A DNA stretch of 64,000 nucleotides, taken from an uncultured Gemmatimonadales bacterium (GTDB lineage: Bacteria > Gemmatimonadota > Gemmatimonadetes > Gemmatimonadales > Gemmatimonadaceae). Numbering within the stretch: the first letter of the stretch is position 1; every line of letters starts with the position of its first letter. Position numbers and translations under genes: made by a program. Under the pieces are notes generated by a model, which was given only the letters and a program-made list of their open reading frames with translations, had not been told where the DNA came from and did not search any database. Of the stretch, positions 13,436 through 64,000 are shown in pieces. The DNA lies in the NCBI GenBank assembly GCA_963850905.1, contig CAWKMU010000003.1, positions 1 through 64,000 of the forward strand. Reading direction: 5' to 3'.

Positions 13436-13754
13436 TCAGCCCCGCTCTGACGGACGGCGGCCAAGAAGGTGGAATCGCGGCAATTCCAAGGCGGAATCGC
13501 GGCAATCGCGCCCTCGCGCCGCGATGTCGAGGAGCGGGATAGACTCCAGCACACTCCCGAAGAAATTGCGCCGGCCCGTGACGGTGAATCGCCCGTTGCC
13601 CTCAGCGATATTGGCTGCGATTGAAAGGGCCGCGCGATTCGACTGATTGGCGAGGAAGTAGGCCCGCGGGAAGAGCCGGCTCGCCGCGCAAACGGTCTCT
13701 GCGAATCCGACGCTTTTTGTGGTGGACGAGGAGCGTCTCGAAGGCAAGCGGCAC
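13436..13754 (-). pseudogene. Four-helix-bundle protein (TIGR02436/Avd-like), frameshifted and truncated; copy 1
   Basis: LAFETLLV...FPRAYFLANQSNRAALSIAANIAEGNGRFT; homologous to the intact copy at 37208-37627. Confidence 0.85.
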
Positions 13755-13795
13755 GCGTCCACACTGGCCTCCGCCCGTCACCCGAGCGTCAGACC

Positions 13796-13940
13796 AGAAA
13801 GTAGAAACTAGAGAGTAGACCGAGTAGCGCGGCCCCGTGGCGCTCACTGCCATCGGGGCCGTTGGTTGTTGTTCGTCTACTTTCTACTTTCTGCTTCGCT
13901 ACTCTCTATTTTTCCCCGCTCCGCGGGGAAAAATGGGGCT
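13796..13940. repeat. Structured post-tRNA tail (heptamer inverted repeats, inner hairpin, terminator-like hairpin); tRNA fragment almost entirely lost
   Basis: CAGAAAGTAGAAACTAGA...TCTACTTTCTACTTTCTG, then ATTTTTCCCCGC-TCC-GCGGGGAAAAAT (13908-13934); near-identical to 63818-63948. Confidence 0.9.
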
Positions 13941-14038
13941 TCCGCGCACCAACTGTGTTGGACTGGGACGAGCGAATACAGAGGTAAGGGCGAGCGAACC
14001 ATCTGTTTATTGGAGGAAGCAGGCGAGTAACGGTCGTC

Positions 14039-14066
14039 TGTCGATTTCCCCGACCCTCGTTCGACG
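14039..14066 (+). promoter_or_regulatory. ECF-type promoter (ECF42-like) upstream of the YciI gene
   Basis: TGTCGA-N14-GTTCGACG; same motif and spacing at 16306-16333. Confidence 0.6.
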
Positions 14067-14124
14067 CCACTATACAGGGGTACTTCCGATCCCCGATTTC
14101 CGACCCTAGCTGAGGATCCGGACC

Positions 14125-14560
14125 ATGCGGTTCATGGCAATCCATTTTTTCACGCCGGCCGGCGAAGGCCGGCCCGATGCCGACGACCGAGCAAATGCAG
14201 ACAGGGGTGAACTTCCACGAAGAGCAGGTGAAAGCCCGAGTGCTGTTGCAGGCCGAGGGGCTGCACCCGAGCTCGAAGGGTGCGCGTGTGCGGCTCTCGG
14301 GGGAGAAGCGGACGGTCACCGACGGGCCGTTCACCGAGGCGAAGGAGCTCATCGGCGGGTTCTGGATTATTGAGGCCAAGTCAATGGAGGAGGCGATCGA
14401 GTGGGTCAAGCGCATTCCAAACCCGTGGCCGGAGGACACCGAGATCGAGGTCCGGCAGGTCGCCGAGCCCGAGGACGTGGAAGAGATGACGCCCGAACTT
14501 GTAGCGCAGATAGCGAGGCTGCACGGCGAGGCGCCGCTCGGTAGGGTGACGACACCCTGA
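14125..14560 (+). CDS. YciI/DGPF family protein, N-terminal frameshift
   Basis: GLHPSSKGARV...VTDGPFTEAKELIGGFWII...IEVRQV. Confidence 0.88.
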
Positions 14561-14736
14561 GCCTCAGCCAAAAATCACGGGACCAATCTGCGGGGAATCT
14601 CTACACGGCCGGGTACAATCGCGCGTACACGCCGACGGAGGATGTTTGGGTGGCGACGTTGCCGGTGGGGCACGCGGATGGATGGCCGAGGGTGGCGGCG
14701 AAGGGGGCGAAGGTTCGGATCAACGGGACATTGGGT

Positions 14737-16199
14737 GGATTCAATTGGTCGTCGCAACACTCTCACCGAGGAGGTTGCGATGACAGCACCGAGGCGACGG
14801 CGCTCGGATCGGTCTGGACGTGGCAAGCTGCATTCACTGGGCCGCCCGCCGGTCGGGCGGCGTGAGGACCGGCAGCGGTTCTGGGGCGCTATCGCCCGCG
14901 GCTGCTACTCCGAGACCGCGGTTGCCGATGCGCGAGTCTCGTGGGTGGTCGGGGCACGCTGGTTCCGACAAGCTGGAGGCATGCCGCCGTCACATCTCGC
15001 CCCATCCGCGTCGCCGCTGTCGGGGCGCTATCTATCCTTCGCCGAGCGCGAGCAGCTGGCGCTCCTCCACGCCCACCACTACGGCGTCCGCGAGATTGCC
15101 CGCCAGCTTGGGCGCGCGCCCTCGAGCATCTCGCGCGAGCTGCGCCGGAATGCGGCGACCCGTGGTGGCGCGCTCGACTACCGTGCGACCACGGCGCAGT
15201 GGCACGCCGACCGGGCGGGCCGCCGCCCGAAGCCGGCGAAGCTGGCGACAGACGCGCGGCTCCGGCAGTATGTGCAGGACCGCCTCGCGGGTGTGATCAC
15301 GGCGCCGGACGGCGCGGCGGCGCGCGGGCCGGCGGTGCCGTGGAGGGGCCGCAGGCACGGGCGTCGGCAGCACCGGCAATGGGGTCGCGCGTGGAGTCCG
15401 GCGCAGATCGCGCATCGGCTCCCCGTCGACTTCCCGGAGGATCCCACCATGCGCATCAGCCACGAAGCGATCTACCAGGCACTCTACGTCCAGGGCCGCG
15501 GCGCGCTCCGTCGCGAGCTGACCGCCTGCTTACGCACGGGCCGGGCGTTGCGCGTGCCGCGTGCCCGCACACGGGCCGCGGGCAGAGGCTTTGTCACGTC
15601 CGACCTGCTGATCAGCGCTCGACCAGCCGAGGCGGACGACCGCGCGGTGCCGGGGCACTGGGAGGGCGATCTGATCCTAGGCCTCGACAGCTCCGCCATC
15701 GGCACGTTGGTCGAGCGCACTACACGCTTCACGCTACTGCTCCACCTCCCGCGCATGCGGGGCCACGCGGCTGGCGCGCGCACGACCGACACAAAGAACG
15801 GGCCCGCGCTCGCCGGGCACGGTGCTCCGGCGGTGCGTGATGCGATCACGCGCGCGATCCAGACACTACCCGCCCAACTGCGGCGGTCGCTGACGTGGGA
15901 TCAAGGGGCAGAGATGGCACAGCACGCACAACTACGCGTTGATACGGGGCTCGCGGTCTACTTCTGCGATCCGCAGAGTCCCTGGCAGCGGGGGACGAAC
16001 GAGAATACGAACGGACTATTGCGGCAGTACTTCCCAAAGGGCACGGATCTGAGCGCGCACAACGCCCCTGATGTGGCTGCGGTCGCGCTCACGCTGAACA
16101 CGCGACCGCGCAAGACGCTCGGCTGGAGAACGCCTGCCGAAGCGCTGAACGAGCTGTTACTCTCACACACACAAACCGTTGCGACGACCGATTGACTCT
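14737..16199 (+). mobile_element. IS30-family insertion sequence
   Basis: Imperfect terminal inverted repeats GGATTCAATTGGTCGTCGCAAC (14737-14758) and GTTGCGACGACCGATTGACTCT (16178-16199) flank the transposase. Confidence 0.88.
14780..16195 (+). CDS. IS30-family transposase
   Basis: ISRELRRN HTH, WSPAQI, ISHEAIY, GHWEGDLI, LTWDQG, SPWQRGTNENTNGLLRQYFPKG and RPRKTLGW motifs. Confidence 0.95.
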   Translation: MTAPRRRRSDRSGRGKLHSLGRPPVGRREDRQRFWGAIARGCYSETAVADARVSWVVGARWFRQAGGMPPSHLAPSASPLSGRYLSFAEREQLALLHAHHYGVREIARQLGRAPSSISRELRRNAATRGGALDYRATTAQWHADRAGRRPKPAKLATDARLRQYVQDRLAGVITAPDGAAARGPAVPWRGRRHGRRQHRQWGRAWSPAQIAHRLPVDFPEDPTMRISHEAIYQALYVQGRGALRRELTACLRTGRALRVPRARTRAAGRGFVTSDLLISARPAEADDRAVPGHWEGDLILGLDSSAIGTLVERTTRFTLLLHLPRMRGHAAGARTTDTKNGPALAGHGAPAVRDAITRAIQTLPAQLRRSLTWDQGAEMAQHAQLRVDTGLAVYFCDPQSPWQRGTNENTNGLLRQYFPKGTDLSAHNAPDVAAVALTLNTRPRKTLGWRTPAEALNELLLSHTQTVATTD

Positions 16200-16305
16200 G
16201 GGTTGTATCCGGTGATCGCATCGGTGTCGGCGAGCCACACGACATTGCGATGCATCTCGGCGCGCTGTTGCCGAGGCGGGTGGTGTAAGGCGACGCGACG
16301 CCCGC

Positions 16306-17362: not shown

Positions 17363-17467
17363 GCGGCCCCGTGGCGACTTACCGCCACGGGGCCGTTGTT
17401 GCTTCTCGTCTACTTTCTACTTTCTGTGTCGCTACTCTCTATTTTTGGCCGCTGTGCGGCCAAAAAT
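17363..17467. repeat. Structured post-tRNA tail, truncated before the four-helix-bundle gene
   Basis: CGGCCCCGTGGCG-ACTTAC-CGCCACGGGGCCG, TCTACTTTCTACTTTCTG and ATTTTTGGCCGC-TGT-GCGGCCAAAAAT. Confidence 0.88.
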
Positions 17468-17511
17468 GGGCCTGGGTAGAGTTGAACTACCGACCTCACG
17501 CTTATCAGGCG
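17467..17511 (-). tRNA. 3' half of tRNA-Ile(GAT), att-site scar 1 (not an intact tRNA)
   Basis: Reverse complement CGC-CTGATAA-GCGTG-AGGTC-GGTAG-TTCAACT-CTACC-CAGGCCC-A gives anticodon loop, T-arm and acceptor 3' strand; no D-arm or 5' half. Confidence 0.92.
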
Positions 17512-17613
17512 CGGGGTTCTCTGCCCTCTTGCCGGCAAGTTGCCGGCTTTCATAGTGACGGCCTGCATATCCGCCCGATCGTAGAGCGCCCGATGCCGGA
17601 ATATGCCGCCTCC

Positions 17614-17637
17614 AATTGGAACCTGAATTAGAACCAT
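17614..17637. repeat. Tandem 12-bp direct repeat (putative integrase arm site)
   Basis: AATTGGAACCTG/AATTAGAACCAT, 106 bp from the anticodon loop. Confidence 0.7.
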
Positions 17638-17778
17638 CTTGCGCACGGCCGGGGCTCTGACCACACGCGGTCCGGTAAATTCGCTGCTCAGTCGACTCGG
17701 CAGCCGGATCAACACTCAATGGTCGTGCGGTCCCGCCCGGTTCGCATCTGGAACACACGCCCCGATCCAGCGAAGGGA

Positions 17779-17982
17779 TCACCGGCCGCCGTGCCGCTCA
17801 CGACTCTTTATGACCGTCACAAGGGCGCGCAATGCTTCGTTAACAGCCTTCGAGTTCGGAAAGACCTCAGCCACATCGCGGTCGAGAACCACGATGTTGG
17901 TGCCCTCCGCGTACCGGGCCGCGTACTTGCCGCGTACGCCACCGGTGAAATCATATTCGTTTCGCATCTCGTCGTCTGACAT
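17779..17982 (-). CDS. BrnA-like antitoxin
   Basis: EMRNEYDFTGGVRGKYA...VVLDRDVAEVFPNSKAVNEALRAL, directly downstream of brnT. Confidence 0.82.
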   Translation of the reverse strand: MSDDEMRNEYDFTGGVRGKYAARYAEGTNIVVLDRDVAEVFPNSKAVNEALRALVTVIKSRERHGGR

Positions 17983-17997
17983 AGTCGCGGCGATCGG

Positions 17998-18282
17998 CTA
18001 GCGATCGCGTTCTTCGTGTTGTCGCCGCTCGCGCGGCGTCGCCGGCCGGGCCGATATGAGCCGAATCTCGTCGTTCTCATCCGCGTGGACCACCACTACC
18101 AGCCGCCCCCGTGCGGAGGACCCAAGCGTCAAGTACCGTGCCTCCCCTGTGGAGTGATGGGGGTCTCCAATCGTCACTGACAGCGGGTCACCAAACACCG
18201 TGACCGCTTCCGTGAAGTCTACCCCGTGTTTCCGAACGTTAGTATCGGCTTTATCGGGATCCCAAGTAAAAGAGAGGCCCAC
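17998..18282 (-). CDS. brnT: BrnT family toxin
   Basis: FTWDPDKADTNVRKHGVDFTEA...IRLISARPATPRER. Confidence 0.92.
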   Translation of the reverse strand: MGLSFTWDPDKADTNVRKHGVDFTEAVTVFGDPLSVTIGDPHHSTGEARYLTLGSSARGRLVVVVHADENDEIRLISARPATPRERRQHEERDR

Positions 18283-18444
18283 GCCTCAAATATACGCCAT
18301 GCGTGGAAACCCACGGCCGAGGCCCGAGTCGAGTGCCGGCGACGGTAGCCCAGTTCAGAGAGAAGATGGCCGGGTACCCCGGTGCCACGAGGAGGCGCCG
18401 GTCGCGACCAGTTGATCCAGTTGTGCCGCATTCTCCGGCGCCAC

Positions 18445-18745
18445 GCATCGGGATCGATATCTTCGACGCGCGCCGGCGACGTCAGCGCCAAGCCGAGGCG
18501 CTTCATGTAGTCCTTTTGCTGCGCGACCGCGTTCGCGTCGTTGTGGTTGTACGACAGCTGGAAACTCAATGGATCGACGGTCGGATTCACACCCCCAGGT
18601 GTTGCGATCGCCACTTTGAATCCGCCGTCCGTGAACTTGCGGTGTGGTGTCACGAATTCTTCCGACCAGAATCCCGTCGGATCGGCGTGGCATTCTTCAT
18701 CGTCCAAACACTCGCACCCGACAGCACCATAACGATTGACGACAT
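18445..18745 (-). pseudogene. DJ-1/PfpI (type 1 glutamine amidotransferase-like) N-terminal fragment
   Basis: PTGFWSEEFVTPH...IATPGGVNPTVDPLS; homology stops before the catalytic region. Confidence 0.7.
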
Positions 18746-19161
18746 TGCTCCTCGCCCTCCCGTTGGGTTGTTCGTCCCGCCACAGGCTGCCTCCCACCGC
18801 CGCGCCTTCCCCGTTAACCGCGCCTTTCTGGCGATCAGGACGACATCACCGACAGGCGCTGTATCCTCGACCGTCCGGCAAGACACAGTGCCTGCTCCAG
18901 TCTGACCGGGCCTCGTCCCTCACTGTTCGCCAGGTTATTCGAGAACCTCCGCACTCGGTAGACGATAAACCCGGAAATCAGCTTCCCGGATTTGAGTGAA
19001 CGAACGAGACCATACCCGAATGCTGTCGGAGTGGCTCGCTCATCCCATTCTTAGGAAACTGATTCCCAGAGTATCCGGGTACCTCGAGGTTTTGCAAAAC
19101 CCTACGTTGTCCCGCCATGGCGGCGCCTGGACCCGGTACTGAACGGTCATTGGAGGATGCG

Positions 19162-19577
19162 GTGAGTGACAGCCGAACCGTGAAGGACGAGGCCGACATT
19201 CGGAGCACGTTGGCGTCGTATAGTGACGCCCTCAACAGCAGCACGACGGCTGGGGTGCAGCCCCTGTACACCGACGACGGCGTGTTTATGCCGCCCTACA
19301 GCCCGTCGGCGGTCGGCAAGGCCGCTGTGGAGAAAGCCTACGATGCTGTCTCAACGAGTTGAAATTCCGCGTGAAGTTCACGATGGCGGAACTGGTCGTG
19401 ATGGCTCCGACTTGGGCGTACGTCCGAACGAATTCGGCGGGCACTACATGGCACCGTTCGACTGGTAGTACGACCTCCGAGGCGAACCAGGAGCTCTTCA
19501 TCTTCAAGAAAGGCGACGACGGCAAGTGGCGCATTGCACGGTACAGCTTCTCGCCGACGAACCCGCTGCCCAGGTGA
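19162..19577 (+). CDS. NTF2-like / SgcJ-EcaC (DUF4440) protein, frameshifted
   Basis: LYTDDGVFMPPYSPSAVG and EANQELFIFKK...WRIARYSFS; GGAGG RBS upstream. Confidence 0.78.
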
Positions 19578-19608
19578 GACTCCGCCGTTCGTCTACGTTT
19601 GCTTGCGG

Positions 19609-20967
19609 TCACGAGCGACCCGTACGCTGGCGGCGCCCAACGTCAAGGGCTGATGTCTGTCCAGGGCCCGAGTCTGGCGGCCCCTGCTCCTTCAGCAACT
19701 GCGCGACGACTCGGTCTTCATCCTCGTACGCTCCCTCGCCGAAGTGATGGAACCTGATGCGTCCATTTCGGTCGGCGATGTACACGCTCGGCCAGTATTC
19801 GTTGTTGAAGGCGCGCCAGATGGCGTAGTTGGCGTCGAGCGCGACAGGGTACGTCACGCCGAGCCGCCGGACGGCGGCCGCCACGTTCTCCGGCACGCGT
19901 TCCGGCGCCAGTTCCGGCGTGTGGACGCCGACAACGACGACATCCTGGCCCTTGTACTTGGCCGCAAGCGCCTTGATATGCGGTAACGCGTTGAGGCAGT
20001 TGTAACACTCGAACGTCCAGACGTTCACGACCACGACCTTCCCTCGCCGTTGATCAGGCGACAGCGCCCGGCCATCGCCACTGGTGTTGAGCCATCCCGT
20101 CGCACCATCGAACGACGGTAAGGGACCTTCGTCCGGCCTTGGGACCGGAGCGGGGGCGGCTGAGTTGCCGACGAAGTGCATCACGGTGGCCTGCCGGTGC
20201 GGGACGAGGCGAGCCAGCAGGACCTCCTCCGCGCCAGCCGTCTGGGCGATGCCGTGCGACGCAAAGAGACGCGCATCCCACCCGATCGCAATGACCAGCG
20301 CCGTAGCGATCGCGGCCGCGCCGAGGATCCGCCGGGCCCACACATCTACCAGATGCCCCCCAATCCGGCGGAGCGCACGCAACACACGGCCGCCAGCAGC
20401 CAGCCCGCCGGCCAGCGCCAAGGCAGCTCCTGCGCCGAACGTCGCGAACAATGACGCGGCAAGCACCGGCCGCGCGCCGGCTGCGGCGGCGCCAGCAACG
20501 AGTCCGAGAATGGGCCCCGCACATGGTGCCCAGAGCAGTCCAGTGGCAACGCCGAGCACGAACGAGCGCCCCGGTGCGGCGCCCGGGGTCGAGTCGGTGG
20601 CTGGCTGGCCAGCGCGCCGCGTCCCGTCCGCTCCGCCATGCGACAGACGAGCGCCGAGACGAACCAGCGGATTCGTGACCCAGCTCGCCAACCGCGGAGA
20701 GAGGAGGCTCACTCCCGCGAGGCTGAGCACGACGAGAGCGGCAATCCGTCCGACGCTAGAAGCCGCGGCCACCTCAGCCGCGCCTGCCGTGCCGACCATC
20801 GCCACCGCGACGAACGCGAGGACAAGACCGCCCAAGAGCGGCAGGGTCTCGCGGGCGAAGGGTCGTCCACTCCGCGCAAACACGAACGGAAGCACAGGCA
20901 GGATACAAGGGCTGGCGATGGTCAACAGCCCGCCCGCGAACACCGCGAGGTAGAGCAGGGCGATCAT
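19609..20967 (-). CDS. dipZ: DipZ-like CcdA-thioredoxin fusion
   Basis: SPCILPVLP and LLWAPCAGPILG in the TM domain; WTFECYNC, GVHTPE and NEYWP in the thioredoxin domain. Confidence 0.85.
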   Translation of the reverse strand: MIALLYLAVFAGGLLTIASPCILPVLPFVFARSGRPFARETLPLLGGLVLAFVAVAMVGTAGAAEVAAASSVGRIAALVVLSLAGVSLLSPRLASWVTNPLVRLGARLSHGGADGTRRAGQPATDSTPGAAPGRSFVLGVATGLLWAPCAGPILGLVAGAAAAGARPVLAASLFATFGAGAALALAGGLAAGGRVLRALRRIGGHLVDVWARRILGAAAIATALVIAIGWDARLFASHGIAQTAGAEEVLLARLVPHRQATVMHFVGNSAAPAPVPRPDEGPLPSFDGATGWLNTSGDGRALSPDQRRGKVVVVNVWTFECYNCLNALPHIKALAAKYKGQDVVVVGVHTPELAPERVPENVAAAVRRLGVTYPVALDANYAIWRAFNNEYWPSVYIADRNGRIRFHHFGEGAYEDEDRVVAQLLKEQGPPDSGPGQTSALDVGRRQRTGRS

Positions 20968-21037
20968 GACACAATTCTCCGGCAGAGGAAGACCCTGCGC
21001 ACGCGTATAGTTGCAGGCTGCAAACCCCAGTCGCGGC

Positions 21038-21325
21038 TCATCGGCGGCTCCAGCCTGCGCTGACGAGTGCCTCGAGGACGCGTGCGCGCAAGGCGATCGC
21101 ATCTTCGTGCTCGCGGCGCAACGCCCGAAGGCGGTCGATCAGTGCGCGCTCGAACCGCTCATGTTCGCGGCAATACACACACTGGGCGAGGTGCGCGTCG
21201 ATGGCCGCCATCGTCGGGGCATCGAGCGTCCGATCCAGATAGTCCCAAAGCGCGCGAACGGCGTGCTCGCAATCGACAGGCATGTCAATGGTATCTGGCG
21301 GCACCTTGGAATCCCAATCAATCAT
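21038..21325 (-). CDS. Zinc-finger (ZAS, zf-HC2) anti-sigma factor
   Basis: C...LWDYLD...HLAQCVYC (HxxxCxxC), coupled to the ECF sigma gene. Confidence 0.88.
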   Translation of the reverse strand: MIDWDSKVPPDTIDMPVDCEHAVRALWDYLDRTLDAPTMAAIDAHLAQCVYCREHERFERALIDRLRALRREHEDAIALRARVLEALVSAGWSRR

Positions 21326-21917: not shown

Positions 21918-21937
21918 GTTTCTTACCCCTTGCTCGC

Positions 21938-22564: not shown

Positions 22565-22606
22565 GGAGGGACCAATAGAAGGGATGAGGTGAGAACTACG
22601 GTGAGA

Positions 22607-23320: not shown

Positions 23321-23389
23321 GAGTGACTCGCGTTATGAGGCCGAGCCCGGACGGCGGTGACCGCTCGCCCAGGGTAAGGGACGTGCGGC

Positions 23390-23612: not shown

Positions 23613-23615
23613 CAG

Positions 23616-24434: not shown

Positions 24435-24440
24435 ATCGGC

Positions 24441-25172: not shown

Positions 25173-25194
25173 GTTGATACCCCTCGATCGTGAT

Positions 25195-50386: not shown

Positions 50387-50395
50387 GAGAAGTCG

Positions 50396-52491: not shown

Positions 52492-52604
52492 TCCCTGGCG
52501 CCGGCAAGACTACTACGTGGAACCGCGGCAGGACGCAGATGGCGAGTTGCCACTCGATACCATCCGTGCGACGACCATTCCTGACATCATCACAGCAGCG
52601 CAAT

Positions 52605-55169: not shown

Positions 55170-55218
55170 CGCGCTGTACTCCGGTCTCGGTTGGTTCCCC
55201 CCTGTAGCTGCGCGACCT

Positions 55219-56439
55219 TCACTCGGCCCAGATCATCGGGCTCTTGATCCTGCTGCTCAACAGCATCTCGGTGTCGGCGTCGTACGTATACTCCTCCCTC
55301 AGGTCATCATTGATGAAGACCCGCAAGACGCCGCTTTTTGTGTCGTCTCGCGCATAGACACGGCGAGCGTGTGGATATTTGTCGCATGAGACGTTGACAC
55401 CGGAGTCAAACCCCTTCCCGATCGGCGTCAGGCGACACGTCTTCTCGAGCGTGCCGATGACGAACACTCCGTCGGGCGTGATCATGTCCGTGTACAGAAC
55501 TCCGCTGCCATCCGGGAACAGCGTCTGGTGCGTTTCGCCGGGCTTATAGTCAACGACCTTCAATGTCACGTCATCCGCAACCGTGTCATTTGCCAGGAGC
55601 CCATCGGGCCGAATATAGAAATGCGCCGTCTCACGGCTCTTGGGGCGCTGACTCCACACGACGAATATGTGCCAGTGGGGCGGTGCGTCCTCATGGGCAA
55701 CGGCCGGACCTTGCGTGGGAAAATTGGTGTCGAACCCCATCACGCGAATGGTACCGATCCCCTGCTCGTCAACGCGTCGATCGAGACCCAAGGCCCGAAT
55801 CGCCTCGCGGGCTGCGAACTCCAGATTGAGAGCCGCCTGATGCTCGACCTCAGGCCATGGTCCAGTCGCGTAGCGCCCACGTCTGCGCTCAATGTCCGCA
55901 TGTTCAATGCGGATTTGTACCCCCGGCGTTTCAATGTAGGTGTACGTTTCCGTCGCGTCGTCACTGTCGTACCACGGCAACGCCTCTAACGCAGGGTCTA
56001 CGAGCGGCGCGTCGAACTTGATCCCGTCCGCCACCCGTACGAAAGGCACACGGCTACGGCCAACGACAACGGCCCGCACCTGGGACGGGTCGACTTTGAT
56101 CTTGACTCCGACCACGGACTGCAGCGTGGTTGGTGCGCGAAAGTGAAAGTAGAACTCCTTGGAATCCTGCCCATCCGTAAAGCGATTCGAGATCAGCCCA
56201 CACGTCGTACACGACGTTGGAAACACGACGGACCACCTCACTGAATCTGCTTTGACCTTCAAGACGCGCACGCTGAGAAAACCTGGCAACACGTACCACT
56301 CGGCAAGAAAGCCGGGCGGGATCTGAAACCCCTCCTGCTCCAATGCCACTTGTGCTGCGAGCGGGTGTGCGCGTCCTACCAACATGGCGCCCACTGTCAC
56401 AACCGTGGCAAGGGACCTCACTCCGAGCAAACCCTTCAT
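55219..56439 (-). CDS. Secreted hypothetical protein
   Basis: 406-aa ORF with signal peptide and HEDAPPHWH His-rich motif; in operon with SusD. Confidence 0.7.
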   Translation of the reverse strand: MKGLLGVRSLATVVTVGAMLVGRAHPLAAQVALEQEGFQIPPGFLAEWYVLPGFLSVRVLKVKADSVRWSVVFPTSCTTCGLISNRFTDGQDSKEFYFHFRAPTTLQSVVGVKIKVDPSQVRAVVVGRSRVPFVRVADGIKFDAPLVDPALEALPWYDSDDATETYTYIETPGVQIRIEHADIERRRGRYATGPWPEVEHQAALNLEFAAREAIRALGLDRRVDEQGIGTIRVMGFDTNFPTQGPAVAHEDAPPHWHIFVVWSQRPKSRETAHFYIRPDGLLANDTVADDVTLKVVDYKPGETHQTLFPDGSGVLYTDMITPDGVFVIGTLEKTCRLTPIGKGFDSGVNVSCDKYPHARRVYARDDTKSGVLRVFINDDLREEYTYDADTEMLLSSRIKSPMIWAE

Positions 56440-56459
56440 TAGTCACCTCGTGTACCGCG

Positions 56460-58039
56460 TTACGGGCAAGTCAACGTCCAGACCCCACCCCGACTCTGTA
56501 TCTCGGATACCGGCACCGGCGCCACTGTCGTGTGGTAGTCGACCCCCGCCGTGCCGGCTACAGCCTGAATAGCAGCGACCGCGAGCGCGTCGGGCCCCGC
56601 CGTCGCCGCCCAAGTGGTATCACTCACCGCCGCCATTCCCCACATGCGAATGGCAATGAGGTGGTCGGCGCTGCCTTCGAGCACGGTGGAGATCCGGAGT
56701 TCCTTCATCAACGTGTCGCGCACCGCCGTGTAGCCCGGCGCGATCGTCAGAGCGGGCAAGCCGCCTGCTTGCTGGTGCACGGTGTTGATGAGCGTGATCG
56801 CGCCCGCGTAGTCCCCGAGCCCGAGGTGAATCTCAGCGCGGACCAGCGCTAATTCCTCCGCGCGCGTAACCGGCACCGGGCCATTCACGGTCGCGGCAGG
56901 CAGATAGCTCACGTCTACGCCCGCCGCTGAGTACTCCGGTAGCTGCAACGGCAGTGGGTTTGGAACAAACTTGTTCTTCCAGCGCAAATCGGCTGCCGAA
57001 TCAACGTCGGCCAACAGATCCTGCATCGGTGCGGTCTGACCATAGTACTGGTTCATCGGATTCGCGTAATCACCCGACTGCCCGCTGTACGTCTCGTACG
57101 CGCCGTATGGATCGAGCGCGAAGGGGCCAGGGACGGGCGGTGCAATGGCGGCGAGATTGTACAGCGCTGAGGCGGCCAGCGCGCTGTCGGCGCGCGTGAG
57201 AGCCGAGGCGTCCGGTGCCCCAGGGGAGCTCGGAGTCGGACTCGTCCCCGGCGTGCTGCGGGCAATGGCATAGGCGAATTCGAGCCCCGCCTTCCCCGCC
57301 AAGGCTCGGTTGAATGCTGCAAAGGCGCCCGGGGTTGTGCTCGGTGCTGCGGTCGCCCCAACCGAGGCGAAGCCCGCCGGCAATATCACCGGCAGCGGGA
57401 TGGCTCCCGCGGTGTTGAGGTCGACAAGTCCCGAGTCGAGAACGGCGACAATGTATTTCCAGACGTCCTTATTGCAGTAGGGCGGGCTTGTGATACCGTC
57501 GTGGATGGCATAGATCGGGACTCCGAGCGTATCAGTCAGCTCAGCCACCCACATGAAGTTCAGCGCCTTGATTGTTTGCGCGATGCCCGCGACCGCGAAT
57601 GCCTGCGCCGGCGTATAGGCAGCCACCTGGGGCAGGATTGCGAGAAGCTGGTTGGCCTGCAGCGCGTATTGAAACGGAGGCGACCACCCCGCGTTGTCAT
57701 ACGGCAACATCGGCGTCTCTCCGCTATAGTGGGTGACCAGCGGAGGCTGCGACGAGAGAAACAGCACTGCGTCGCGCGAAAACGCATTCACCATCCCCAG
57801 GAAGTAACCGTTGGTCTGCTCGGTGCGCATTCCGCCGAACAACCCGGTGATGGCATTTTGCACCCCTGTCGGGCTGTTCGGTATGCTCGTCGGCGCCGTG
57901 AAGTACGGCACGCGTGACTCACCGCACGCCGAAGTCGAGAGATGAATGTGAGGCCAGCAATCAGCGCAGGCCTGTAGCAGCGGCGTGTTGCGCCCCGAGG
58001 CGACGCGGCTCGCTCGTCGATCGAGAACGAGGGAATCAT
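56460..58039 (-). CDS. RagB/SusD-like lipoprotein, frameshift in the signal region
   Basis: Lipobox TSAC just upstream of ORF 57911; RAEELALVRAEI...AITLINTV...ELRISTVLEG. Confidence 0.8.
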
Positions 58040-58040
58040 G

Positions 58041-61000
58041 TCAAAAGCCCAGATCAAGGGAAAGGAAATAACTGCGCGCAGGCGGGTAAGGCGTGATCTG
58101 AAAGCCGCGCTCCACATCCTCGCTTTGGAACCAGGTCGCCGCCGGGTCCATGCCCGTGTAACCTGACGAGTACGAGTGCAGGAGATTCCGACCGGTGAGG
58201 TTGAGCCGTGCGCTCGCGATGCGCCCGCCGAGCGCGCGACTGATCCAGCGGGCCGGAACCGTGTAGCTTAGCGCAACCTCCCGGAGCCAGATCGTACTCG
58301 CTGGCTCTACAAACGGCGTGAGGTTCTGCACGGCCTGCTGGACACGTTTCGCCTCCAGAGCGGTATCGGCCAGCAGGAAGGGACCGTAGTCGAAGTAGTA
58401 GTTCGTGAGGTTGCTGATACTCGCACCCCGCTGCCACTCGACCAGGCCAGAGAGGCGGAACCCGCCGTAGCTAATCGAGTTATTGAAGGTCATGACATAG
58501 GACGGCTGGCCGTCGCCGACCTGCTTGGGCATGCCGTCCGAGGTCAGGACTGCCGTATTCACTATGTCCGAAACGGACCGTCCCACCTGGATCCAGTATT
58601 CCCCGTACGGGCCACCGAATTCCTCGTACCCTGGGGTGAATGGCCCGACTGGCAACGCATTCACGACGCTGTAGTTGCGATAGAACGTCGTCGTCGTGAG
58701 CCACGTCAGCCCTTGCGGCGTCTGCACAGGTGTGGCCGAGAGCGATAGCTCAATTCCCTGGTTCGTGAATTCGCCACCGTTCGACCAGTCGCTCGTGTAT
58801 CCGAGCGACGCGGGCACACCCGCCTGAAGCAGTAGATTCGTGATGCGCTTTTGATACACGGTCGCGCTGAGCTGTGCTCGCGATCGAAACATCGTCCCGT
58901 CAACGCCCATCTCGATTTCCGCCTCCGACTCAGGCTTGATGGTTGGATCGCCCAGCGTGGTCGTGTTCGTGATCCCGGGCAGCCCACTCGCGATGAGTGT
59001 CGTGAGAGGCGTGTACTGGACGCCGTAATTGGGTTGCGTCCCCGATTGCCCGTACGCGGCCCGCAGCTTGAGCTCGTCCAAAAAGCCCACAAACTGTGGG
59101 ACGCGATACGACGCCGAGTACCGCGGGTAGGCGTAGAATTTGTTGAAGTTGCCGTCGTTCGACGTGCGCTCCGCCGTGACCCCGGCCGTCACGGCCAAGC
59201 GGTCCGACAGCGTGATGACTTGCTCCTGCGCGTACCACGACTGATCGTGTTGCGCCGACTTGGAGAAGAAATTGCTCTGCACCGCCCCGATCGCTGGCAA
59301 TGCCGCGCCTGCGATCAGCTGTTGCGAGACGCTGGACGGGTTGATCAGCTGTCAATGTTCGTCGCCAAATCCCACCAATGTCGTAAAGTCCAGCTGCGAC
59401 AGTCCTGTGTAGTGGTGGATAACGTTCAGCGAGAGGTTCGAGTACGAGGTGTTCGCTTCTGCGGTCGTCGCGACCCCTGGCAGTGACGTCGCCTGCTCGA
59501 CCTGCAGAGCCGGCGGCGCATAGAGATCGTCGTGTTGATCGGTGTAGTCCGCTCCGCCAAGGACGTTGACGCGAAGGCTCTGATGCTCCGTGCTCCAGGC
59601 CGTCCAGTTGATGTTGCCGCCGCCAATGAAGCGGTTTACAGTCTCCGGCGTTTGGACCTCGGCGGCGTCCGCGAACGGATTCGCGGGGCCAAACGGGTTA
59701 ACCGGCCAGAGACCGTCCGCATGCTGCTGATCCAGCGTCACGAACTGCGGCGTGTACGCAAACGCGTTGTACGGGGCGATGCCGATATTGTCGTTCCCAC
59801 TGATCCCGCGCCGGGTGAGCGAGTGCGCGTATGTGAGATTCGCCGAGACCGAGAGGGTGCTGAAGAGCTGCTGCGTGACGTTCGCGCGGACGGTGCTTTT
59901 TTGGTACCCGGTGTTCGTCTGAATCCCGTTGTCGTACTTGGCGAGCCCCGACACGAAATACTGGGTCTGCGCCAGCGCCCCGCTCAAGCTGATGTCCGTT
60001 TCGTACGCGGCCTGCGGATTGCTGAACAGCTGGCTCTGGTAGTCCTGCGGACCCGAGTAGACCGACGCGATCTTGGATTCGCCATACCCGAGCGGTGCCC
60101 CCCAATCCTGTGCACTCGCGAGCGTCGGGAACTGTCGAAGAGCTAAAGTCTGCGCATCGGTGAAGTGGCCGACCGTTTGCGAGATCAACCACGAGGGCTT
60201 GCCGGCGGTCCCATGCTTCGTCGTGATGATGATCACCCCCAATGACGCCTTGGACCCGTAGATCGCCGACGCCGACGCGCCCTTCAAGACCTCGACCGAC
60301 TCAATGTCGTCCGGGTTGAGGTCAGCAATGCGGTTGGTGCCGTTGTCGACCTCGTTGGGCTGCAGGACTCCGCCCGCAGTAATGGCACTCTCGCCGGAGT
60401 AGGCCGTCTGGTTGTTCACGATCACCCCGTCGACGACGTAGAGCGGTGTCGCCGCCGCGTTGATGGACGTGATCCCCCTGATCTGCACGTAGAGCCCCCC
60501 ACCGGGGGCCCCGCTGTTGTTCGTCTCGATCACTGCGCCGGGCACCTGGCCTTGCAGCGAGTTCTCGATAGTCGGCGCTGGCACAGCCGTGATGTTCTGC
60601 GCGGGGACGACCGCGACGTCGTTCGCGGCGTTCTGAGACGACACAGTTGTCGCCACCCCCGTGACCACCTGCGCCTCGAGGCGAAGGACGTCCTGCCGCA
60701 GCGCGACGGTGTAGTCCATCTGTCCCGCGACGATCGGCACGATCTGGGCGAGATAACCAATGCGACGCACCGTCAGTGATTTCGCACCCGTGGGAAGCCG
60801 GAAACTGAACGTTCCGCTGTCCGTGGTGTTTTGTCCTGTCGTGGTGCCTGTTACCACAACGGACGCAGCGGCCACGGGCTGCTTACTGCCGGCGTCGAGC
60901 ACTCGCCCCGTAACCCGCGAGTCTTGACGGTGCGTGCTGGTGTGTTCGTCGATACGCGGTGGTCGCCCAACCAGCACGGCATCACCGCGAATCGAGACGT

Positions 61001-61370
61001 ATGCTGGGAGTCCGGTGCCCTCGAGCACGATCGCCAAGGCGTTGGCAACACTCACGTTTGCCACGTGGAGCGAGACATGCGCTCGCGACGCCAGCACGTC
61101 TGGCCCCAACTGGATTGCGACACCTGCGGCTTCGCCGACTGCGAGCAGGGCGTCTTTGAGCGAGGAAACGCGAAGGTCGAGCGAGACCGACTCCCGAAGG
61201 ATCGCAGCGGCGCTGTTGGTCGTCCGCACCCACGTGTCCTGCCGTGTATCGGGGGGAGTGTTTGCGGCGAGCGCGTTCGAGTCAGGCGTTCGCGTCGGCT
61301 CCTGAGCTGCGATCCGAGCGGCGAACATCGCGAGAGCGAATGCGAATCGAGGTACAATTGTCACGGTCAT
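58041..61370 (-). CDS. SusC/RagA-like TonB-dependent receptor with N-terminal signalling extension, frameshifted near 59350
   Basis: PLYVVDGV, ADLNPDDIESVEVLKGASASAIYGSKAS.GVIIITTK; C-terminal YPPARSYFLSLDLGF. Confidence 0.9.
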
Positions 61371-61408
61371 TGGATGTTCCGCCGAACACAAGAGGACGCG
61401 AGCAGAGC

Positions 61409-62481
61409 TCACGATCGCGGGATGGCATGGAAGGTCACTGTTCGGCCAGTACGCTCGTAGCGCGTGCCAGTGAGCAACACGAGTGCGTCGAGCACTTCGG
61501 TGCTGCTCTGGGAGCCGAATGTGACTGTCAGCAGTTGACGTCCGAGCGCGGGATCCGCGAGCTGTATGTCGAGATCCCACCAGCGACCGATCAATGCACT
61601 GACCTCGCTGAAGGGCACTGAGTCGAAGGCGAGACGTCCTTCCGTCCAGCCAATTGCTGCAGCGGATTTCACTCCGTGCCGGAGCGCAGCCAACTGACCT
61701 GACGTATCGATCAGCGCGAGATCGTTTGCTTGTAATTCGACCTGGGCGACGTTGACCTTGCCTTCGGAAACGACCACCTGCCTCCGCGTCGCGCCGCCAT
61801 AGGCCGTAACGGCGAACCGCGTCCCGATATCGCGGATAGTGAGGTGGCCGGCATGGACTGCGAAGGGACGGGCCGCGTCATGTCGGACCACAAAGTACGC
61901 TTCGCCGTCGAGGTAAACATCGCGTGTCGGCTCGCCGTAATCGTCGGGAATGCGAAGGCTTGTAGCGGCGCCCAACACGATCTGCGTTCCATCATCCAGT
62001 TGGAGATTGGCGCGTTGCGCCGGGCGGGTCGAGAATTCTCGCGCGCCCCGAGGCGACGCGGGGTGCGGCTGTCGAATCCGACCAATCGCGATGCCCCCGT
62101 CACACCCAGGACTGCGAGCACGAACGCAGCCGCGGCCGCTGCGGGAAACCGGATCAGCGCTGTCCTCCAGGAGTCCCGACGCTCGCCCCGAACCACCAAC
62201 AGGGCTTTGCGGCGCTCACTCGAAGCAATGACCCGCCCCTCGACATCGCGGCCTTCTCTCGCCGCGGCAGTCAGTCGCGCACTCAGTCGGACCCATGCCG
62301 TCTCAGGATCTGTCATGCGCGACCGCGACTCGAGGGCGCGCGCAAGTTTGCGAAGCAATGCCAGTTCTGCAGCACGATCCGGTCGAGCCGCCAGCCAGCG
62401 CTCCACCTCGGCGCGCTCGGCTGGGGAGCACGCTCCGGTAATGTGGCGAGCCAGCAAATGATGATCGGACGAATCGTGCAT
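61409..62481 (-). CDS. FecR-family anti-sigma/signal transducer, frameshifted near 62030
   Basis: ERAEVERWL, a TM segment, R.VYLDGEAYFVV.HD..RPF.V...IGTRFAV and WTEGRLAF. Confidence 0.87.
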
Positions 62482-62577
62482 CGGGTGCCTGGCGCTCGGG
62501 TCAGCGAGTTTCCGCTATTTCAATGCGGAACCTCCGGCAAAACCCAACGTCCCTTTCCAAGCGCGGTGCTAACCGAC

Positions 62578-63261
62578 TCAGAAGAACTTCTCGAGTTCTC
62601 GGCGAATGGCCCTGAGGCCGAGCATGATCTCCCGCTCGACATACTTGACGGACGTTCCCATTGTTCGCGCGACCTCGGCGTTCGCGAGGTGGTACTCCCA
62701 GCGCAACGTCACCGCCAGGCGCCGACGCTCCGGCAGGTGCCCTAATGCCGCATGCAGCGCTGCGGTCACCTCGTTCCGACGACAGGCTTCGTCGGTGGGC
62801 TCGGGGCCTTGCCCCATGCCAGTACGTTCCACGCCGCCGCTGGCAGCCGCCTCCCATCTACTCGCGACGCGGTCATGCCGCCGACGTCCGGACAGGTAGT
62901 TGCGTACCGCCACGACCAGATACGCTTGGATACTGCCGCGCAGCTTCCACCGAGGACCAAGCGCCCAAATGTTGTACATCACGTCTTGTACGCATTCGTC
63001 CGCGAGATCCTTGTCCTGCGTCAGTGCCACTACGTAGGCGTGTAGCTCGACGTAGTACACGTCGAACATGGTCTTGAACGCTCCGGCATCCCCTGCGCGA
63101 ATGCGCGCGGCCATCGCCGCATCGGCCGTCGGTGGTGACAGCTCGTCCAGCCGGTCGCGACGCACTGAACTCGGCACCTGCATCGGGCCGGCCAGCGAAA
63201 GCCCTGGGGCGGGATCCGCCATCGAACTGACGACCTGGAGGTCCGCAGCTGGATCGGTCAT
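62578..63261 (-). CDS. ECF sigma factor (FecI-like)
   Basis: GDAGAF...ADECVQDV...YLVVAVRN...LPERRRLAVTLRW...EVARTMG.S. Confidence 0.9.
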   Translation of the reverse strand: MTDPAADLQVVSSMADPAPGLSLAGPMQVPSSVRRDRLDELSPPTADAAMAARIRAGDAGAFKTMFDVYYVELHAYVVALTQDKDLADECVQDVMYNIWALGPRWKLRGSIQAYLVVAVRNYLSGRRRHDRVASRWEAAASGGVERTGMGQGPEPTDEACRRNEVTAALHAALGHLPERRRLAVTLRWEYHLANAEVARTMGTSVKYVEREIMLGLRAIRRELEKFF

Positions 63262-63684
63262 GGGCCGTCACGATTATGCCCACGTTTGCTGACGCGCAAG
63301 GCACCTTACCGATCGCTCTCTGGTCGACAACTATAGGGCGCGTCGAAAGAATCGACCGACACGTGACCAAGTTGTGACCACCGGAGAAACGCCCGGCCGC
63401 CTGCGGCGATCATCAACGCACAAGGAATGGCTGCTCATCCCTAGGCTCGTCGCTACAGATCGAGCAAGGGCTCGACGAGAATCAATGCCACGATCGCGAA
63501 CTCGAGGAGCTCCGCGCGGGGTGCTTAGGCTTCGCTGTTCAGCATGCGCACATCTCACGGAGGTTGGGAGCTTGCGGTCAGTGCCGCGACGCAACTCCTG
63601 GCGCCCGAAAGAGACTCGACCCCGCGGGTTGCCGGTCAGGAACTGGCCGACGACAGAGCCGGCACAAGTCGACCATCGCTGCAG

Positions 63685-63777
63685 CCCCGCGGCAAGCGCC
63701 GCCTCGCCGCGCACACAGCGTCGGCCAGTCCCACACTCTTCTGGTACCACGAGAAGCTTCTCGAACGCAAACGCCAT
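63685..63777 (-). pseudogene. Four-helix-bundle protein, N-terminal stub; copy 5
   Basis: MAFAFEKLLV / YQKSVGLADAVCAARRRLPRG. Confidence 0.8.
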
Positions 63778-63817
63778 GCGTCTATGCTGCCCGATCGGCG
63801 TCGGCAGACCGTCAGGG

Positions 63818-63948
63818 CAGAAAGTAGAAAGTAGAGGGAGTAGCACGGCCCCGTGGCGCTCACTGCCATCGGGGCCGCTGTTGCTGTTCGTCTACTTTCT
63901 ACTTTCTGTTTCGCTACCCTCTATTTTCCCCGCTCCGCGGGGAAAAAT
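63818..63948. repeat. Structured post-tRNA tail, T/A type
   Basis: Perfect 18-bp inverted repeat CAGAAAGTAGAAAGTAGA (63818-63835) / TCTACTTTCTACTTTCTG (63891-63908); TTTTCCCCGC-TCC-GCGGGGAAAA hairpin. Confidence 0.9.
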
Positions 63949-63989
63949 GGGCCTGGGTAGAGTTGAACTACCGACCTCACGCTTATCAG
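63948..63989 (-). tRNA. 3' half of tRNA-Ile(GAT), att-site scar 7
   Basis: Identical core that ends exactly at the anticodon-loop boundary (TTATCAG). Confidence 0.92.
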
Positions 63990-64000
63990 CCAAGTTGCCT

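What the first reader, a model, noticed from the sequence alone, without database searches (positions are those of the whole stretch)
13436..64000. Integrase-less cassette array punctuated by seven identical tRNA-Ile 3' halves: a possible tRNA-anchored gene-capture platform
Seen: a 42-bp core (TGGGCC...CTTATCAG) recurs unchanged and in one orientation at 17467, 35208, 37807, 41261, 46625, 52321 and 63948. It divides the region into units of about 17.7, 2.6, 3.5, 5.4, 5.7 and 11.6 kb with unrelated cargo. Identity always stops 0-4 bp past the anticodon loop. No tyrosine or serine integrase, replication, conjugation or phage gene was recognised in any unit. Known: one class of tyrosine integrases crosses over in the 7-nt anticodon loop and displaces the tRNA 3' half, and tandem islands at one tRNA occur. 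Inference: these are non-autonomous cassettes added serially by integrases acting in trans, comparable to an integron or tycheposon-type island but using a tRNA half as the recombination site. The intact tRNA-Ile should lie to the right of 64000.
Basis: partly seen in the sequence, partly recalled or inferred. Interest (0 to 1): 0.9.

Follow-up and report, generated by a model that had tools for sequence, protein, structure and literature searches.

The report
Stacked mobile-element remnants at tRNA-Ile
A soil bacterium's only isoleucine-GAU tRNA gene has been hit again and again by integrating mobile DNA, leaving a row of cargo blocks separated by identical tRNA half-copies; this kind of pile-up is known, but here most blocks have lost their own integration enzyme and end in a copied 'tRNA tail'.

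Summary
The 42-nt tRNA-Ile(GAT) 3' half is exact at all seven stated places.

The unit next to the tRNA (63990-72744) is a self-sufficient integrative element. It has a tyrosine integrase, an excisionase-like gene, a rolling-circle Rep and the same repeat pair in both arms.

The six in-window units have no integrase trace. They are not uniform cassettes. Five start with arms carrying repeat pairs of three kinds, each matching integrase-side arms at tRNA-Ile in relatives. None keeps the matching second arm. Four end instead in a copied "tRNA tail": a palindromic repeat plus a PF05635 four-helix-bundle gene.

Best reading: tandem accretion at an integration hotspot, with passenger or remnant units. 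Dehalococcoides ssrA islands, tycheposon islands and cis-mobilisable elements are the known parallels. An integron-like platform is not supported.

The scan met the tRNA-tail unit before on other DNA (e1-4121202).

The parts
17467..17508 (-). Junction J1: displaced tRNA-Ile(GAT) 3' half, 45 nt identical to the tRNA
35208..35249 (-). Junction J2: displaced 3' half, 46 nt identical
37807..37848 (-). Junction J3: displaced 3' half, 44 nt identical
41261..41302 (-). Junction J4: displaced 3' half, 44 nt identical. Its left flank is not an L module
46625..46666 (-). Junction J5: displaced 3' half, 44 nt identical
52321..52362 (-). Junction J6: displaced 3' half, 44 nt identical. Its left flank is not an L module
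63948..63989 (-). Junction J7: displaced 3' half, 42 nt identical. To its right starts the 8.8-kb integrase-bearing element (63990 to C3:72744), which ends at the intact tRNA-Ile c[72745-72818] outside the window
17509..35207 (.). Unit U1 (17.7 kb). Left arm has the palindrome CCGGCAAGTTGCCGG (17532) and the repeat pair AATTGGAACC/AATTAGAACC (17614, 17626). Cargo: redoxins, DsbD, ECF sigma with anti-sigma, SDRs, TetR, nitrilase-type hydrolase, OsmC, PLP enzyme. It holds an internal arm relic at 33878-33994. No integrase
35250..37806 (.). Unit U2 (2.6 kb). Left arm has the repeat pair AACGGACACC x2 (35355, 35367). Cargo: a weak RelE-like ORF plus an HTH_3 protein, and the genome's only full-length PF05635 gene (about 37211-37636, minus strand). 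No integrase
37849..41260 (.). Unit U3 (3.4 kb). Left arm is R-type with AATTGTCCCC x2 (37953, 37965). Cargo: a MacB/FtsX-type permease (38271-40769). An anticodon-arm-like hairpin lies at 41185-41212. No integrase
41303..46624 (.). Unit U4 (5.3 kb). Left arm is R-type with AATTGTCCCC x2 (41407, 41419). Cargo: HepT/MNT pair, RCC1-repeat protein, phosphodiesterase (two ORFs), GNAT. Its stretch 43154-45822 is 96.5% identical to a unit beside tRNA-Ala in G001. No integrase
46667..52320 (.). Unit U5 (5.7 kb). Its arm is atypical, with GAGCGCTGGA x2 directly at the core (46676, 46686). Cargo: Mrp/NUBPL-type ATPase, NifU, nitroreductase-like protein. No integrase
52363..63947 (.). Unit U6 (11.6 kb). 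Left arm is R-type (AATTGTCCCC at 52480, a variant copy beside it). Cargo: phosphoesterase/beta-propeller protein, three proteins with no Pfam hit, TonB-dependent receptor, FecR, ECF sigma. No integrase
37211..37806 (-). L module at J3. On the tRNA's strand it reads: terminator-like hairpin, about 110-nt palindromic element with heptamer-repeat arms, then the full PF05635 four-helix-bundle gene
34777..35207 (-). L module at J2, with a degenerate PF05635 gene (profile positions 1-73)
46203..46624 (-). L module at J5, with a truncated PF05635 gene (profile positions 1-78)
63683..63947 (-). L module at J7, with a PF05635 stub of 21 aligned residues
17350..17466 (-). L module at J1: part of the palindromic element and the terminal hairpin only, no PF05635 gene
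13520..13940 (-). L module without a tRNA half (a decayed junction, J0). The paralogous copy at the end of contig C4 still has the half, with 1 mismatch
14730..16205 (+). Insertion sequence (HTH_38 + rve domains) with four copies in the genome. It interrupts a unit that is uninterrupted in G001

Best explanation
This is an integration hotspot, not a purpose-built cassette platform. Tyrosine integrases that cross over in the anticodon loop of the single tRNA-Ile(GAT) gene have inserted element after element. Each insertion restored the tRNA with an element-borne 3' half and pushed the old half, with everything behind it, further from the gene (tandem accretion). The newest insertion, 63990 to C3:72744, is a complete small integrative element. 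It has a tyrosine integrase, an excisionase-like gene and a rolling-circle Rep. The same repeat pair (GCGTACCC, one copy extended to GCGTACCCC) sits in both arms.

The six older units in the window are non-autonomous leftovers or passengers. Five still begin with a recognisable tRNA-distal arm: a palindrome plus a direct-repeat pair about 105-120 nt from the core. These pairs are of three kinds, each matching an integrase-side arm at tRNA-Ile in a relative. All six lack the integrase and the matching tRNA-proximal arm. Four end instead in a copy of the tRNA's own tail, a heptamer-armed palindromic element plus a PF05635 gene.

Shown: the anatomy, the absence of integrases, the arm matches, and transfer of segments between species.

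Inferred: the units arrived either joined to an integrase-bearing driver that later left alone (accretion and cis-mobilisation), or by homologous recombination that used the tail-plus-half repeats and the tRNA flank as anchors.
For: 1. Intact tRNA and eight exact direct halves in one orientation within 55 kb, with identity ending 0-4 nt past the loop.

2. The tRNA-proximal unit has an ORF of 452 aa. It matches PF00589 over profile positions 6-169 of 172 (E 2.7e-4, below the curated cut-off). It also matches PHROG integrase phrog_1 (E 8.9e-8) and, weakly, a XerC-like PDB chain. The unit also holds an RC-Rep (PF23343, phrog_10883) and a MerR/HTH_17-like gene. The repeat pair lies at 64099 and at 72653/72664.

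3. Window arm repeats match integrase-side arms in relatives. AATTGTCCCC x2 (U3, U4, U6) matches G001. AATTGGAACC/AATTAGAACC (U1) matches G004. AACGGACACC x2 (U2) matches the AACGGACAC-type repeats of G020 and G044.

4. Test for shared 9-mers between the first and last 200 nt of each unit: 1 of 7 G000 units passes, the 8.8-kb element. Of 13 units tested in relatives, five share direct-repeat-type words. Four of these carry an integrase or integrase-like ORF (G004 35011-50782, G004 50825-112907, G038, G044). The fifth, in G020, has no integrase. The other eight share none or only stray 9-mers.

5. No integrase was found in the window and no HTH_17 hit.

6. Turnover and transfer. G000 and G001 share the unit left of J1 at 97%, and homology stops 2 nt past the 42-mer. 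U4 cargo is 96.5% identical to a G001 unit at tRNA-Ala. Core flanks are only 82-89% identical.

7. L copies in the array are not each other's nearest relatives. The J3 copy groups with the L behind the intact tRNA-Ile of G002 (support 95/93).

8. Seven of the 61 genomes searched, G000 included, have three or more copies of the half.

9. G004 holds a 62-kb element with matching outer arms and an internal L plus degenerate half. This is a composite of the kind the accretion model needs.
Against: The model does not explain how a unit comes to end in an L module, since integrase action alone cannot create a second L. No remnant of any integrase was found. Under pure decay some trace would be expected in at least one of six units.

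The halves are all perfect, while the adjoining L modules differ by 8-26%. That fits recent, separate arrivals better than long decay in place.

Two-armed units without integrase exist in relatives. Cassettes born without an integrase are therefore possible.

The assembly is 82% complete, so a cognate integrase could lie in missing sequence. The integrase call for the 8.8-kb element rests on matches below Pfam's curated cut-off.
Confidence: 0.68

Rival explanations
1. The units are non-autonomous cassettes made to be moved singly by integrases supplied in trans, so the tRNA half works like an integron attC or attI site and the locus is a gene-capture platform.
For: No integrase trace in six units. 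All halves are perfect. Unit ends are conserved and modular around variable cargo. Integrase-less units with matching repeat pairs in both arms exist beside the intact tRNA-Ile of G020 and beside tRNA-Ala of G001. An L-ended unit without integrase also sits between tRNA-Pro halves in G002.
Against: The arms belong to at least three different repeat classes, so there is no common site or enzyme. None of the six in-window units (0 of 6) has matching arms. G000 has no detectable relative of the G001 or G004 integrases, and the resident integrase's repeat type (GCGTACCC) occurs in no in-window arm. Cargo points both ways. An arm relic without a half lies inside U1 (33878-33994), which indicates decay and fusion.
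Confidence: 0.17
2. The in-window units were exchanged between related strains mainly by ordinary homologous recombination. The 160-640 bp 'L module plus half' repeats and the conserved tRNA flank served as anchors. Integrases made only the first junctions.
For: L plus half is present at five of the seven in-window junctions (and at C4:712909) and gives far more homology than the 42-nt core. Island segments are 96-98% identical between G000 and G001 against 82-89% for core flanks. L lies directly behind the intact tRNA-Ile in G002, G003 and G007, so recipients offer the anchor.
Against: L copies differ by 8-26%, which is poor substrate for RecA. J4 and J6 lack L. Between G000 and G001, homology ends within 2 nt of the core at J1, not inside L. 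This is a route of spread, not an account of origin.
Confidence: 0.3
3. The repeats are an assembly artefact, or a local duplication within this metagenome-assembled genome.
For: The genome is a MAG at 82% completeness. The end of C4 carries a 92-98% similar second version of window 7-14.7 kb. No public contig bridged a junction.
Against: Cargo is unrelated between units. The same junction type occurs in independent assemblies of G001, G004, G020, G038, G044, G046 and G050. L copies are diverged and group across genomes. A 2030-nt public contig reproduces the interior of U2 without a difference.
Confidence: 0.03

Closest known systems
Tandem ssrA genomic islands of Dehalococcoides (PMC3146451; I read the passages found by term search)
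   Same: Many islands sit in a row downstream of one stable-RNA gene. They are bounded by direct repeats of its 3' end, with strain-specific cargo. 15 islands lack an integration module; the authors suggest that these might be cis-mobilisable elements moved by accretion.
   Different: There the target is tmRNA, the repeat is 20 bp, and the enzyme is a serine recombinase. Here the target is the tRNA-Ile anticodon loop, the repeat is 42-46 nt, and the enzymes are tyrosine integrases of several arm classes. The copied tRNA tail (L module) at unit ends has no counterpart in the passages I read.
Tycheposon-built islands of Prochlorococcus (bioRxiv 10.1101/2020.12.28.424599; abstract and passages read)
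   Same: Elements integrate at a few tRNA genes. Neighbouring elements are separated only by a partial tRNA. New arrivals push old ones into the island, and partial tRNAs mark older events. Small elements carry an integration module and a replication module plus cargo.
   Different: That paper reports fragmented integrases among the remnants; none was found here. Homology of hallmark genes to tycheposons was not tested. The phylum here is Gemmatimonadota, by the record titles of close relatives.
Cis-mobilisable elements (CIMEs) and accretion in streptococcal ICE/IME tandems (review PMC5704250; passages read)
   Same: Elements without integration or transfer genes, flanked by att sites, stacked in tandem with a functional element at the 3' end of a target gene. 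Transfer of the whole composite has been observed.
   Different: A CIME keeps both attL and attR. The six units here keep the core repeats and one arm but not the matching second arm. No conjugation genes were seen.
Islander-type tRNA islands and tandem arrays (PMC4383910; passages read)
   Same: A tDNA plus a displaced 3' fragment in direct orientation, with an anticodon-centred crossover (2083 of 3919 islands in that database).
   Different: Islander counts a tandem member only if it has its own integrase. It lists 4 arrays of three or more. Here 1 of 7 units would qualify.
Integron
   Same: A row of integrase-less gene units separated by a repeated recombination site.
   Different: There is no intI beside an attI, no attC-type sites and no common promoter or orientation. 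The sites are tRNA halves with lambda-like arms of several classes.

Membership tests
tRNA-integrating genomic island (Islander definition) | An intact tDNA plus a cognate 3' fragment in direct orientation bounds the island | tested here: met
   tRNA-Ile c[72745-72818] and seven exact 42-nt fragments on the same strand
tRNA-integrating genomic island (Islander definition) | Each island has its own tyrosine integrase gene | tested here: not met
   Met only for 63990-72744. None of the 6 in-window units has a PF00589 match at E<=1 in six frames, or a tblastn hit
tRNA-integrating genomic island (Islander definition) | Crossover at a canonical sublocation (anticodon loop) | tested here: met
   Identity to the tRNA ends 0-4 nt beyond the 7-nt loop in all seven copies
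Cis-mobilisable element (CIME) | Lacks integration and transfer genes | tested here: met
   Pfam scan of 217 window ORFs of 100 aa or more. Six-frame searches with PF00589, PF00239 and PF12728
Cis-mobilisable element (CIME) | Retains functional attL and attR, meaning both arms of the parent element | tested here: not met
   Core repeats are present, but 0 of 6 units share any 9-mer between their first and last 200 nt. Units with matching arms do: the 8.8-kb element, two in G004, G038, G044 and G020
Cis-mobilisable element (CIME) | Moved together with an adjacent functional element | not testable with these tools
   Public contigs gave no junction evidence. The G004 composite with an internal L and half is only suggestive
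Integron | intI next to attI, cassettes ending in attC, one orientation under a common promoter | tested here: not met
   The only integrase lies inside the last unit and reads towards the tRNA. Cargo lies on both strands. The sites are tRNA halves with arms of differing repeat type
Tycheposon | Shared hallmark integration and replication genes of that family | not tested
   The 8.8-kb element has an integrase and an RC-Rep. No comparison with tycheposon proteins was made
Tyrosine recombinase (for the 452-aa ORF at C3:71288-72646) | Catalytic domain matching PF00589 above the curated cut-off | tested here: inconclusive
   21.2 bits against a cut-off of 27.1, but aligned over profile positions 6-169 of 172. 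PHROG integrase phrog_1 at E 8.9e-8. XerC-like PDB chain at E 0.019. The candidate R...R...W...Y residues were read by eye

The most novel reading that the evidence does not exclude
The 'L module' (tRNA 3' half, palindromic element and PF05635 four-helix-bundle gene) would be the working tRNA-proximal end of a distinct class of integrase-less units. These units would restore both the tRNA and its co-oriented tail gene. They could combine with distal arms of several integrase families and would spread between species, at tRNA-Ile and at tRNA-Pro. In that case the locus would be a tRNA-tail-anchored gene-capture system rather than a graveyard of decayed elements.
Probability: 0.2. Interest if true: 0.65.

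Novelty: new variant of a known kind. Interest (0 to 1): 0.42.

Why it matters
The locus shows how flexible gene content builds up at one tRNA gene in Gemmatimonadales, a common but little-studied soil lineage. The arm repeats act as fingerprints. They let each integrase-less block be assigned to an integrase class that is known only from relatives.

The recurring loss of the integrase end and its replacement by a copy of the tRNA's own tail is not explained by the standard accretion model, and it gives a concrete question to test. The link between PF05635 genes and tRNA 3' ends recalls the same family's place inside 23S rRNA intervening sequences.

Tried and rejected
1. Public reads. One run search found soil metagenomes holding at most 0.45 of the sampled words. 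Laying the contigs of four runs on 34000-53900 gave depths of about 2-8 and no contig bridging a junction. The listed joints fall in L or R repeat homology, and the loose ends at halves are other organisms' tRNA-Ile genes. This gives no verdict on excision or on the assembly.

2. The search for related loci with the integrase in genome contigs: 54 pattern matches, none confirmed.

3. The integrase searched in 61 relatives. Only weak partial hits appeared in G002 and G027. One 30%-identical gene lies beside tRNA-Ile in G038.

4. Rfam on the window at gathering threshold: nothing. At E<=1 on 37100-38300, only microRNA-precursor models appeared. They merely reflect the long hairpin.

6. I first took the heptamer repeats of the palindromic element for integrase arm sites. 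I rejected this because the element is a dispersed family, with about 16 long copies.

7. I first assumed the 634-aa ORF beside the G020 tRNA was an integrase. Pfam shows a polysaccharide-deacetylase-like protein.

8. A shared left boundary of truncated L modules near 37376-37385 looked site-specific. The alignment shows J2 continuing in weak homology, so I make no claim.

9. A pattern search for arm repeats of the G020 type found only the two known G020 sites in five genomes.
Full report
**Observation.**
The 42-mer is exact at all seven stated coordinates and was never matched in 100 shuffles. The window is C3:1-64000 of a 4.49-Mb, six-contig assembly. Genome-wide there are nine matches at up to 2 mismatches. 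Seven are the window copies. One lies at C3:72745. One, with 1 mismatch, lies at C4:712909, 747 bp from a contig end. ARAGORN finds no tRNA in the window. It finds the assembly's only tRNA-Ile(GAT) at c[72745-72818], among 47 tRNAs and one tmRNA. Identity of the seven copies to that gene runs 42-46 nt from the 3' end, which is the whole 7-nt anticodon loop plus 0-4 nt.

**The unit next to the tRNA.**
The stretch 63990 to C3:72744 (8755 bp, GC 0.618 against 0.667 for the next 100 kb) lies almost wholly outside the window. It encodes a 452-aa ORF that ends 98 nt before the tRNA.
- The ORF matches PF00589 over profile positions 6-169 of 172. At E 2.7e-4 and 21.2 bits, this is below the cut-off of 27.1.
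- It matches PHROG integrase phrog_1 at E 8.9e-8.
- It matches a XerC-like PDB chain weakly.

The unit also has a rolling-circle Rep (PF23343; phrog_10883 at E 5.8e-26) and a MerR/HTH_17-like small gene. The repeat pair GCGTACCCCACGCGTACCC lies about 110 nt inside the distal end (64099). The same pair lies about 80 nt from the tRNA at 72653/72664. This is the anatomy of a complete lambda-type attP split by integration.

**No integrase in the window.**
I scanned all 217 window ORFs of 100 aa or more against Pfam, plus 45 of the 65 such ORFs in the next 20 kb. The only recombinase-type hits were the integrase above and an insertion-sequence transposase (HTH_38 + rve, 14642-16192).
- Six-frame PF00589 at E<=1 gave nine places in the genome, none in C3:1-64000.
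- PF00239 gave none in the genome.
- PF12728 gave weak hits only inside the 8.8-kb element.
- tblastn used 13 ORFs of 200 aa or more that end within 400 nt of a tRNA-Ile copy in relatives. It gave no window hit at E<=1e-3, and three of them hit the 8.8-kb element's integrase. Some of these 13 later proved not to be integrases.

**What flanks the halves.**
On the right of J1, J2, J3, J4 and J6 the sequence follows one plan. After the core come about 23-25 nt, then a palindrome near CCGGCAAGTTGCCGG, a second palindrome about 45 nt on, then a direct-repeat pair about 105-120 nt from the core. The pair differs between units:
- U1 has AATTGGAACC/AATTAGAACC.
- U2 has AACGGACACC x2.
- U3 and U4 have AATTGTCCCC x2, and U6 has one exact copy beside a variant.
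- U5 is atypical, with GAGCGCTGGA x2 at the core.

Each typical pair recurs in relatives on the other side of a unit, next to a tRNA-Ile copy:
- AATTGTCCCC x2 lies between a 399-aa ORF and the intact tRNA-Ile of G001. The G001 displaced halves carry the R-type arm.
- AATTAGAACC/AATTGGAACC lies beside the PF00589-positive ORF at the G004 tRNA.
- AACGGACAC-type pairs lie in G020 and G044.

**A simple test of arm matching.**
I compared the first and last 200 nt of each unit for shared 9-mers.
- In G000, 1 of 7 units passes: the 8.8-kb element.
- Of 13 units in relatives, five share repeat-type words. These are G004 35011-50782 and 50825-112907, G038, G044 and G020 22175-26562. The other eight share none or only stray 9-mers.
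- Four of the five carry an integrase or integrase-like ORF. The G020 unit does not.

So the six window units are one-armed.

**The L module.**
Left of J1, J2, J3, J5, J7 and C4:712909, and at 13520-13940 without a half, lies a conserved block 74-92% identical between copies. Read on the tRNA's strand it contains:
- a T-flanked hairpin;
- a palindrome of about 110 nt with tandem-heptamer arms (z = -6.7 for folding);
- the start of a PF05635 gene.

All four PF05635 hits of the genome lie here, and only the J3 copy is full length. The palindromic part belongs to a dispersed family, with about 16 long copies. One of them abuts tRNA-Pro(GGG) at C3:2064172. An earlier scan note (e1-4090135) described this family.

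L lies directly behind the intact tRNA-Ile in G002, G003 and G007. It also lies behind tRNA-Pro(GGG) in G002 and G004. In G002 an integrase-less 4.75-kb unit (HicA, TPR, kinase, full PF05635) sits between an L-flanked tRNA-Pro half and the L-flanked tRNA-Pro.

More widely, 72 loci encode relatives of the J3 protein. Many are in Planctomycetota at 66-75% identity. Of the first 60 scanned, 33 have a same-strand tRNA ending within 300 nt upstream: 27 Pro, 2 Arg, and 1 each of Ile, Glu, Ser and Asp (my count). None of 78 downstream ORFs of 130 aa or more matched PF00589. None of the 33 loci repeats the tRNA tail within about 3 kb.

**Movement.**
- G000 and G001 share the block left of J1 (13982-14733 and 16239-17352) at 97%. 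G001 lacks the insertion sequence there. Homology stops at 17510, two bases past the core, where G001 continues with an R-type arm.
- U4 cargo (43154-45822) is 96.5% identical to part of a 5.7-kb unit in G001. That unit is bounded by 45-nt tRNA-Ala(TGC) halves, has matching arm repeats and has no integrase.
- Core flanks of the same genome pair are 82-89% identical.
- In a tree of 13 L copies, the J3 copy groups with the G002 L behind the intact tRNA-Ile (support 95/93). The array copies are not each other's nearest relatives. Three rows contain non-homologous sequence and sit on long branches.
- Seven of the 61 genomes searched, G000 included, hold three or more copies of the half.

**Reading.**
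The halves, the arms and the complete newest element show serial integrase-mediated insertion. The differing arm classes, the one-armed state, an arm relic without a half inside U1 (33878-33994) and the insertion sequence all speak for passenger or remnant units rather than uniform cassettes.

G004 holds a 62-kb element with matching outer arms and an internal L plus degenerate half. This is the composite that accretion followed by departure of the driver requires.

What remains unexplained is how units come to end in L, and why no integrase trace survives. Homologous exchange through L-plus-half repeats is a plausible second route.

**Known parallels.**
I read only passages found by term search in these papers.
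- Dehalococcoides ssrA islands, including 15 without an integration module (PMC3146451).
- Tycheposon islands with partial tRNAs between elements (10.1101/2020.12.28.424599).
- Cis-mobilisable elements and accretion (PMC5704250).
- Islander, which lists 4 arrays of three or more among 3919 islands (PMC4383910).

A search for PF05635 and its names listed 15 of 25 papers. By title and abstract start, none concerns tRNA linkage; the full texts were not read.

**Limits.**
The genome is an 82%-complete MAG. Public contigs gave no junction evidence.

Noticed in passing
window 6995-7038: A decayed tRNA-Pro(GGG) 3' half (26 of 27 nt at its 3' end, then degenerate). It lies just before an SDR gene that is 97.8% identical to C4:706655-707477. 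It looks like a relic of a tRNA-Pro-type unit inside the region left of the tRNA-Ile array.
   Followed up: partly
window 1-11000: Several genes are split into two or three adjacent ORFs: Mem_trans, the molybdopterin-binding oxidoreductase subunit, MFS and Amidohydro_3. Long ORFs in U1 and U6 are intact. These may be pseudogenes or local assembly errors.
   Followed up: no
window 14730-16205; C4:1-1472, 33629-35104, 42712-44180: A four-copy insertion sequence (HTH_38 + rve), 99.9-100% identical between copies. Contig C4 ends exactly at the point where this element starts in the window. The last 12 kb of C4 are a 92-98% similar second version of parts of window 7-26 kb. This may be the array's continuation or a strain variant.
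   Followed up: partly
window 41185-41212: A hairpin, GACCTCACGC-CTACTTAG-GCGTGAGGTC, that mimics an extended tRNA-Ile anticodon arm. It lies 48 nt left of J4, one of the two junctions without an L module. It may be a secondary core-like site.
   Followed up: no
L042-L096: Relatives of the PF05635 protein at 66-75% amino-acid identity occur in Planctomycetota MAGs, mostly 110-300 nt behind tRNA-Pro genes of all three anticodons. In three Phycisphaerales loci the next genes are IscS and NifU. Such high identity across phyla suggests transfer of a tRNA-tail gene.
   Followed up: partly
L033:7326-13135 (G001): A 5.7-kb unit between 45-nt tRNA-Ala(TGC) halves. AAACGGGTAAC-type repeats lie in both arms and there is no integrase. 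The phosphodiesterase is split into two ORFs at the same place as in window U4.
   Followed up: partly
G020:C16 (L017, L018) and G050:C240 (L019, L020): Arrays in other genera hold more, shorter and partly degenerate halves, with spacings down to 0.7-2 kb. No PF00589 match was found in the G020 array region.
   Followed up: partly
C3:2045081-2064253 (outside the window): The palindromic element abuts the intact tRNA-Pro(GGG). A partial copy with the same terminal hairpin lies 19 kb away without a tRNA half. This may be an old island boundary.
   Followed up: no
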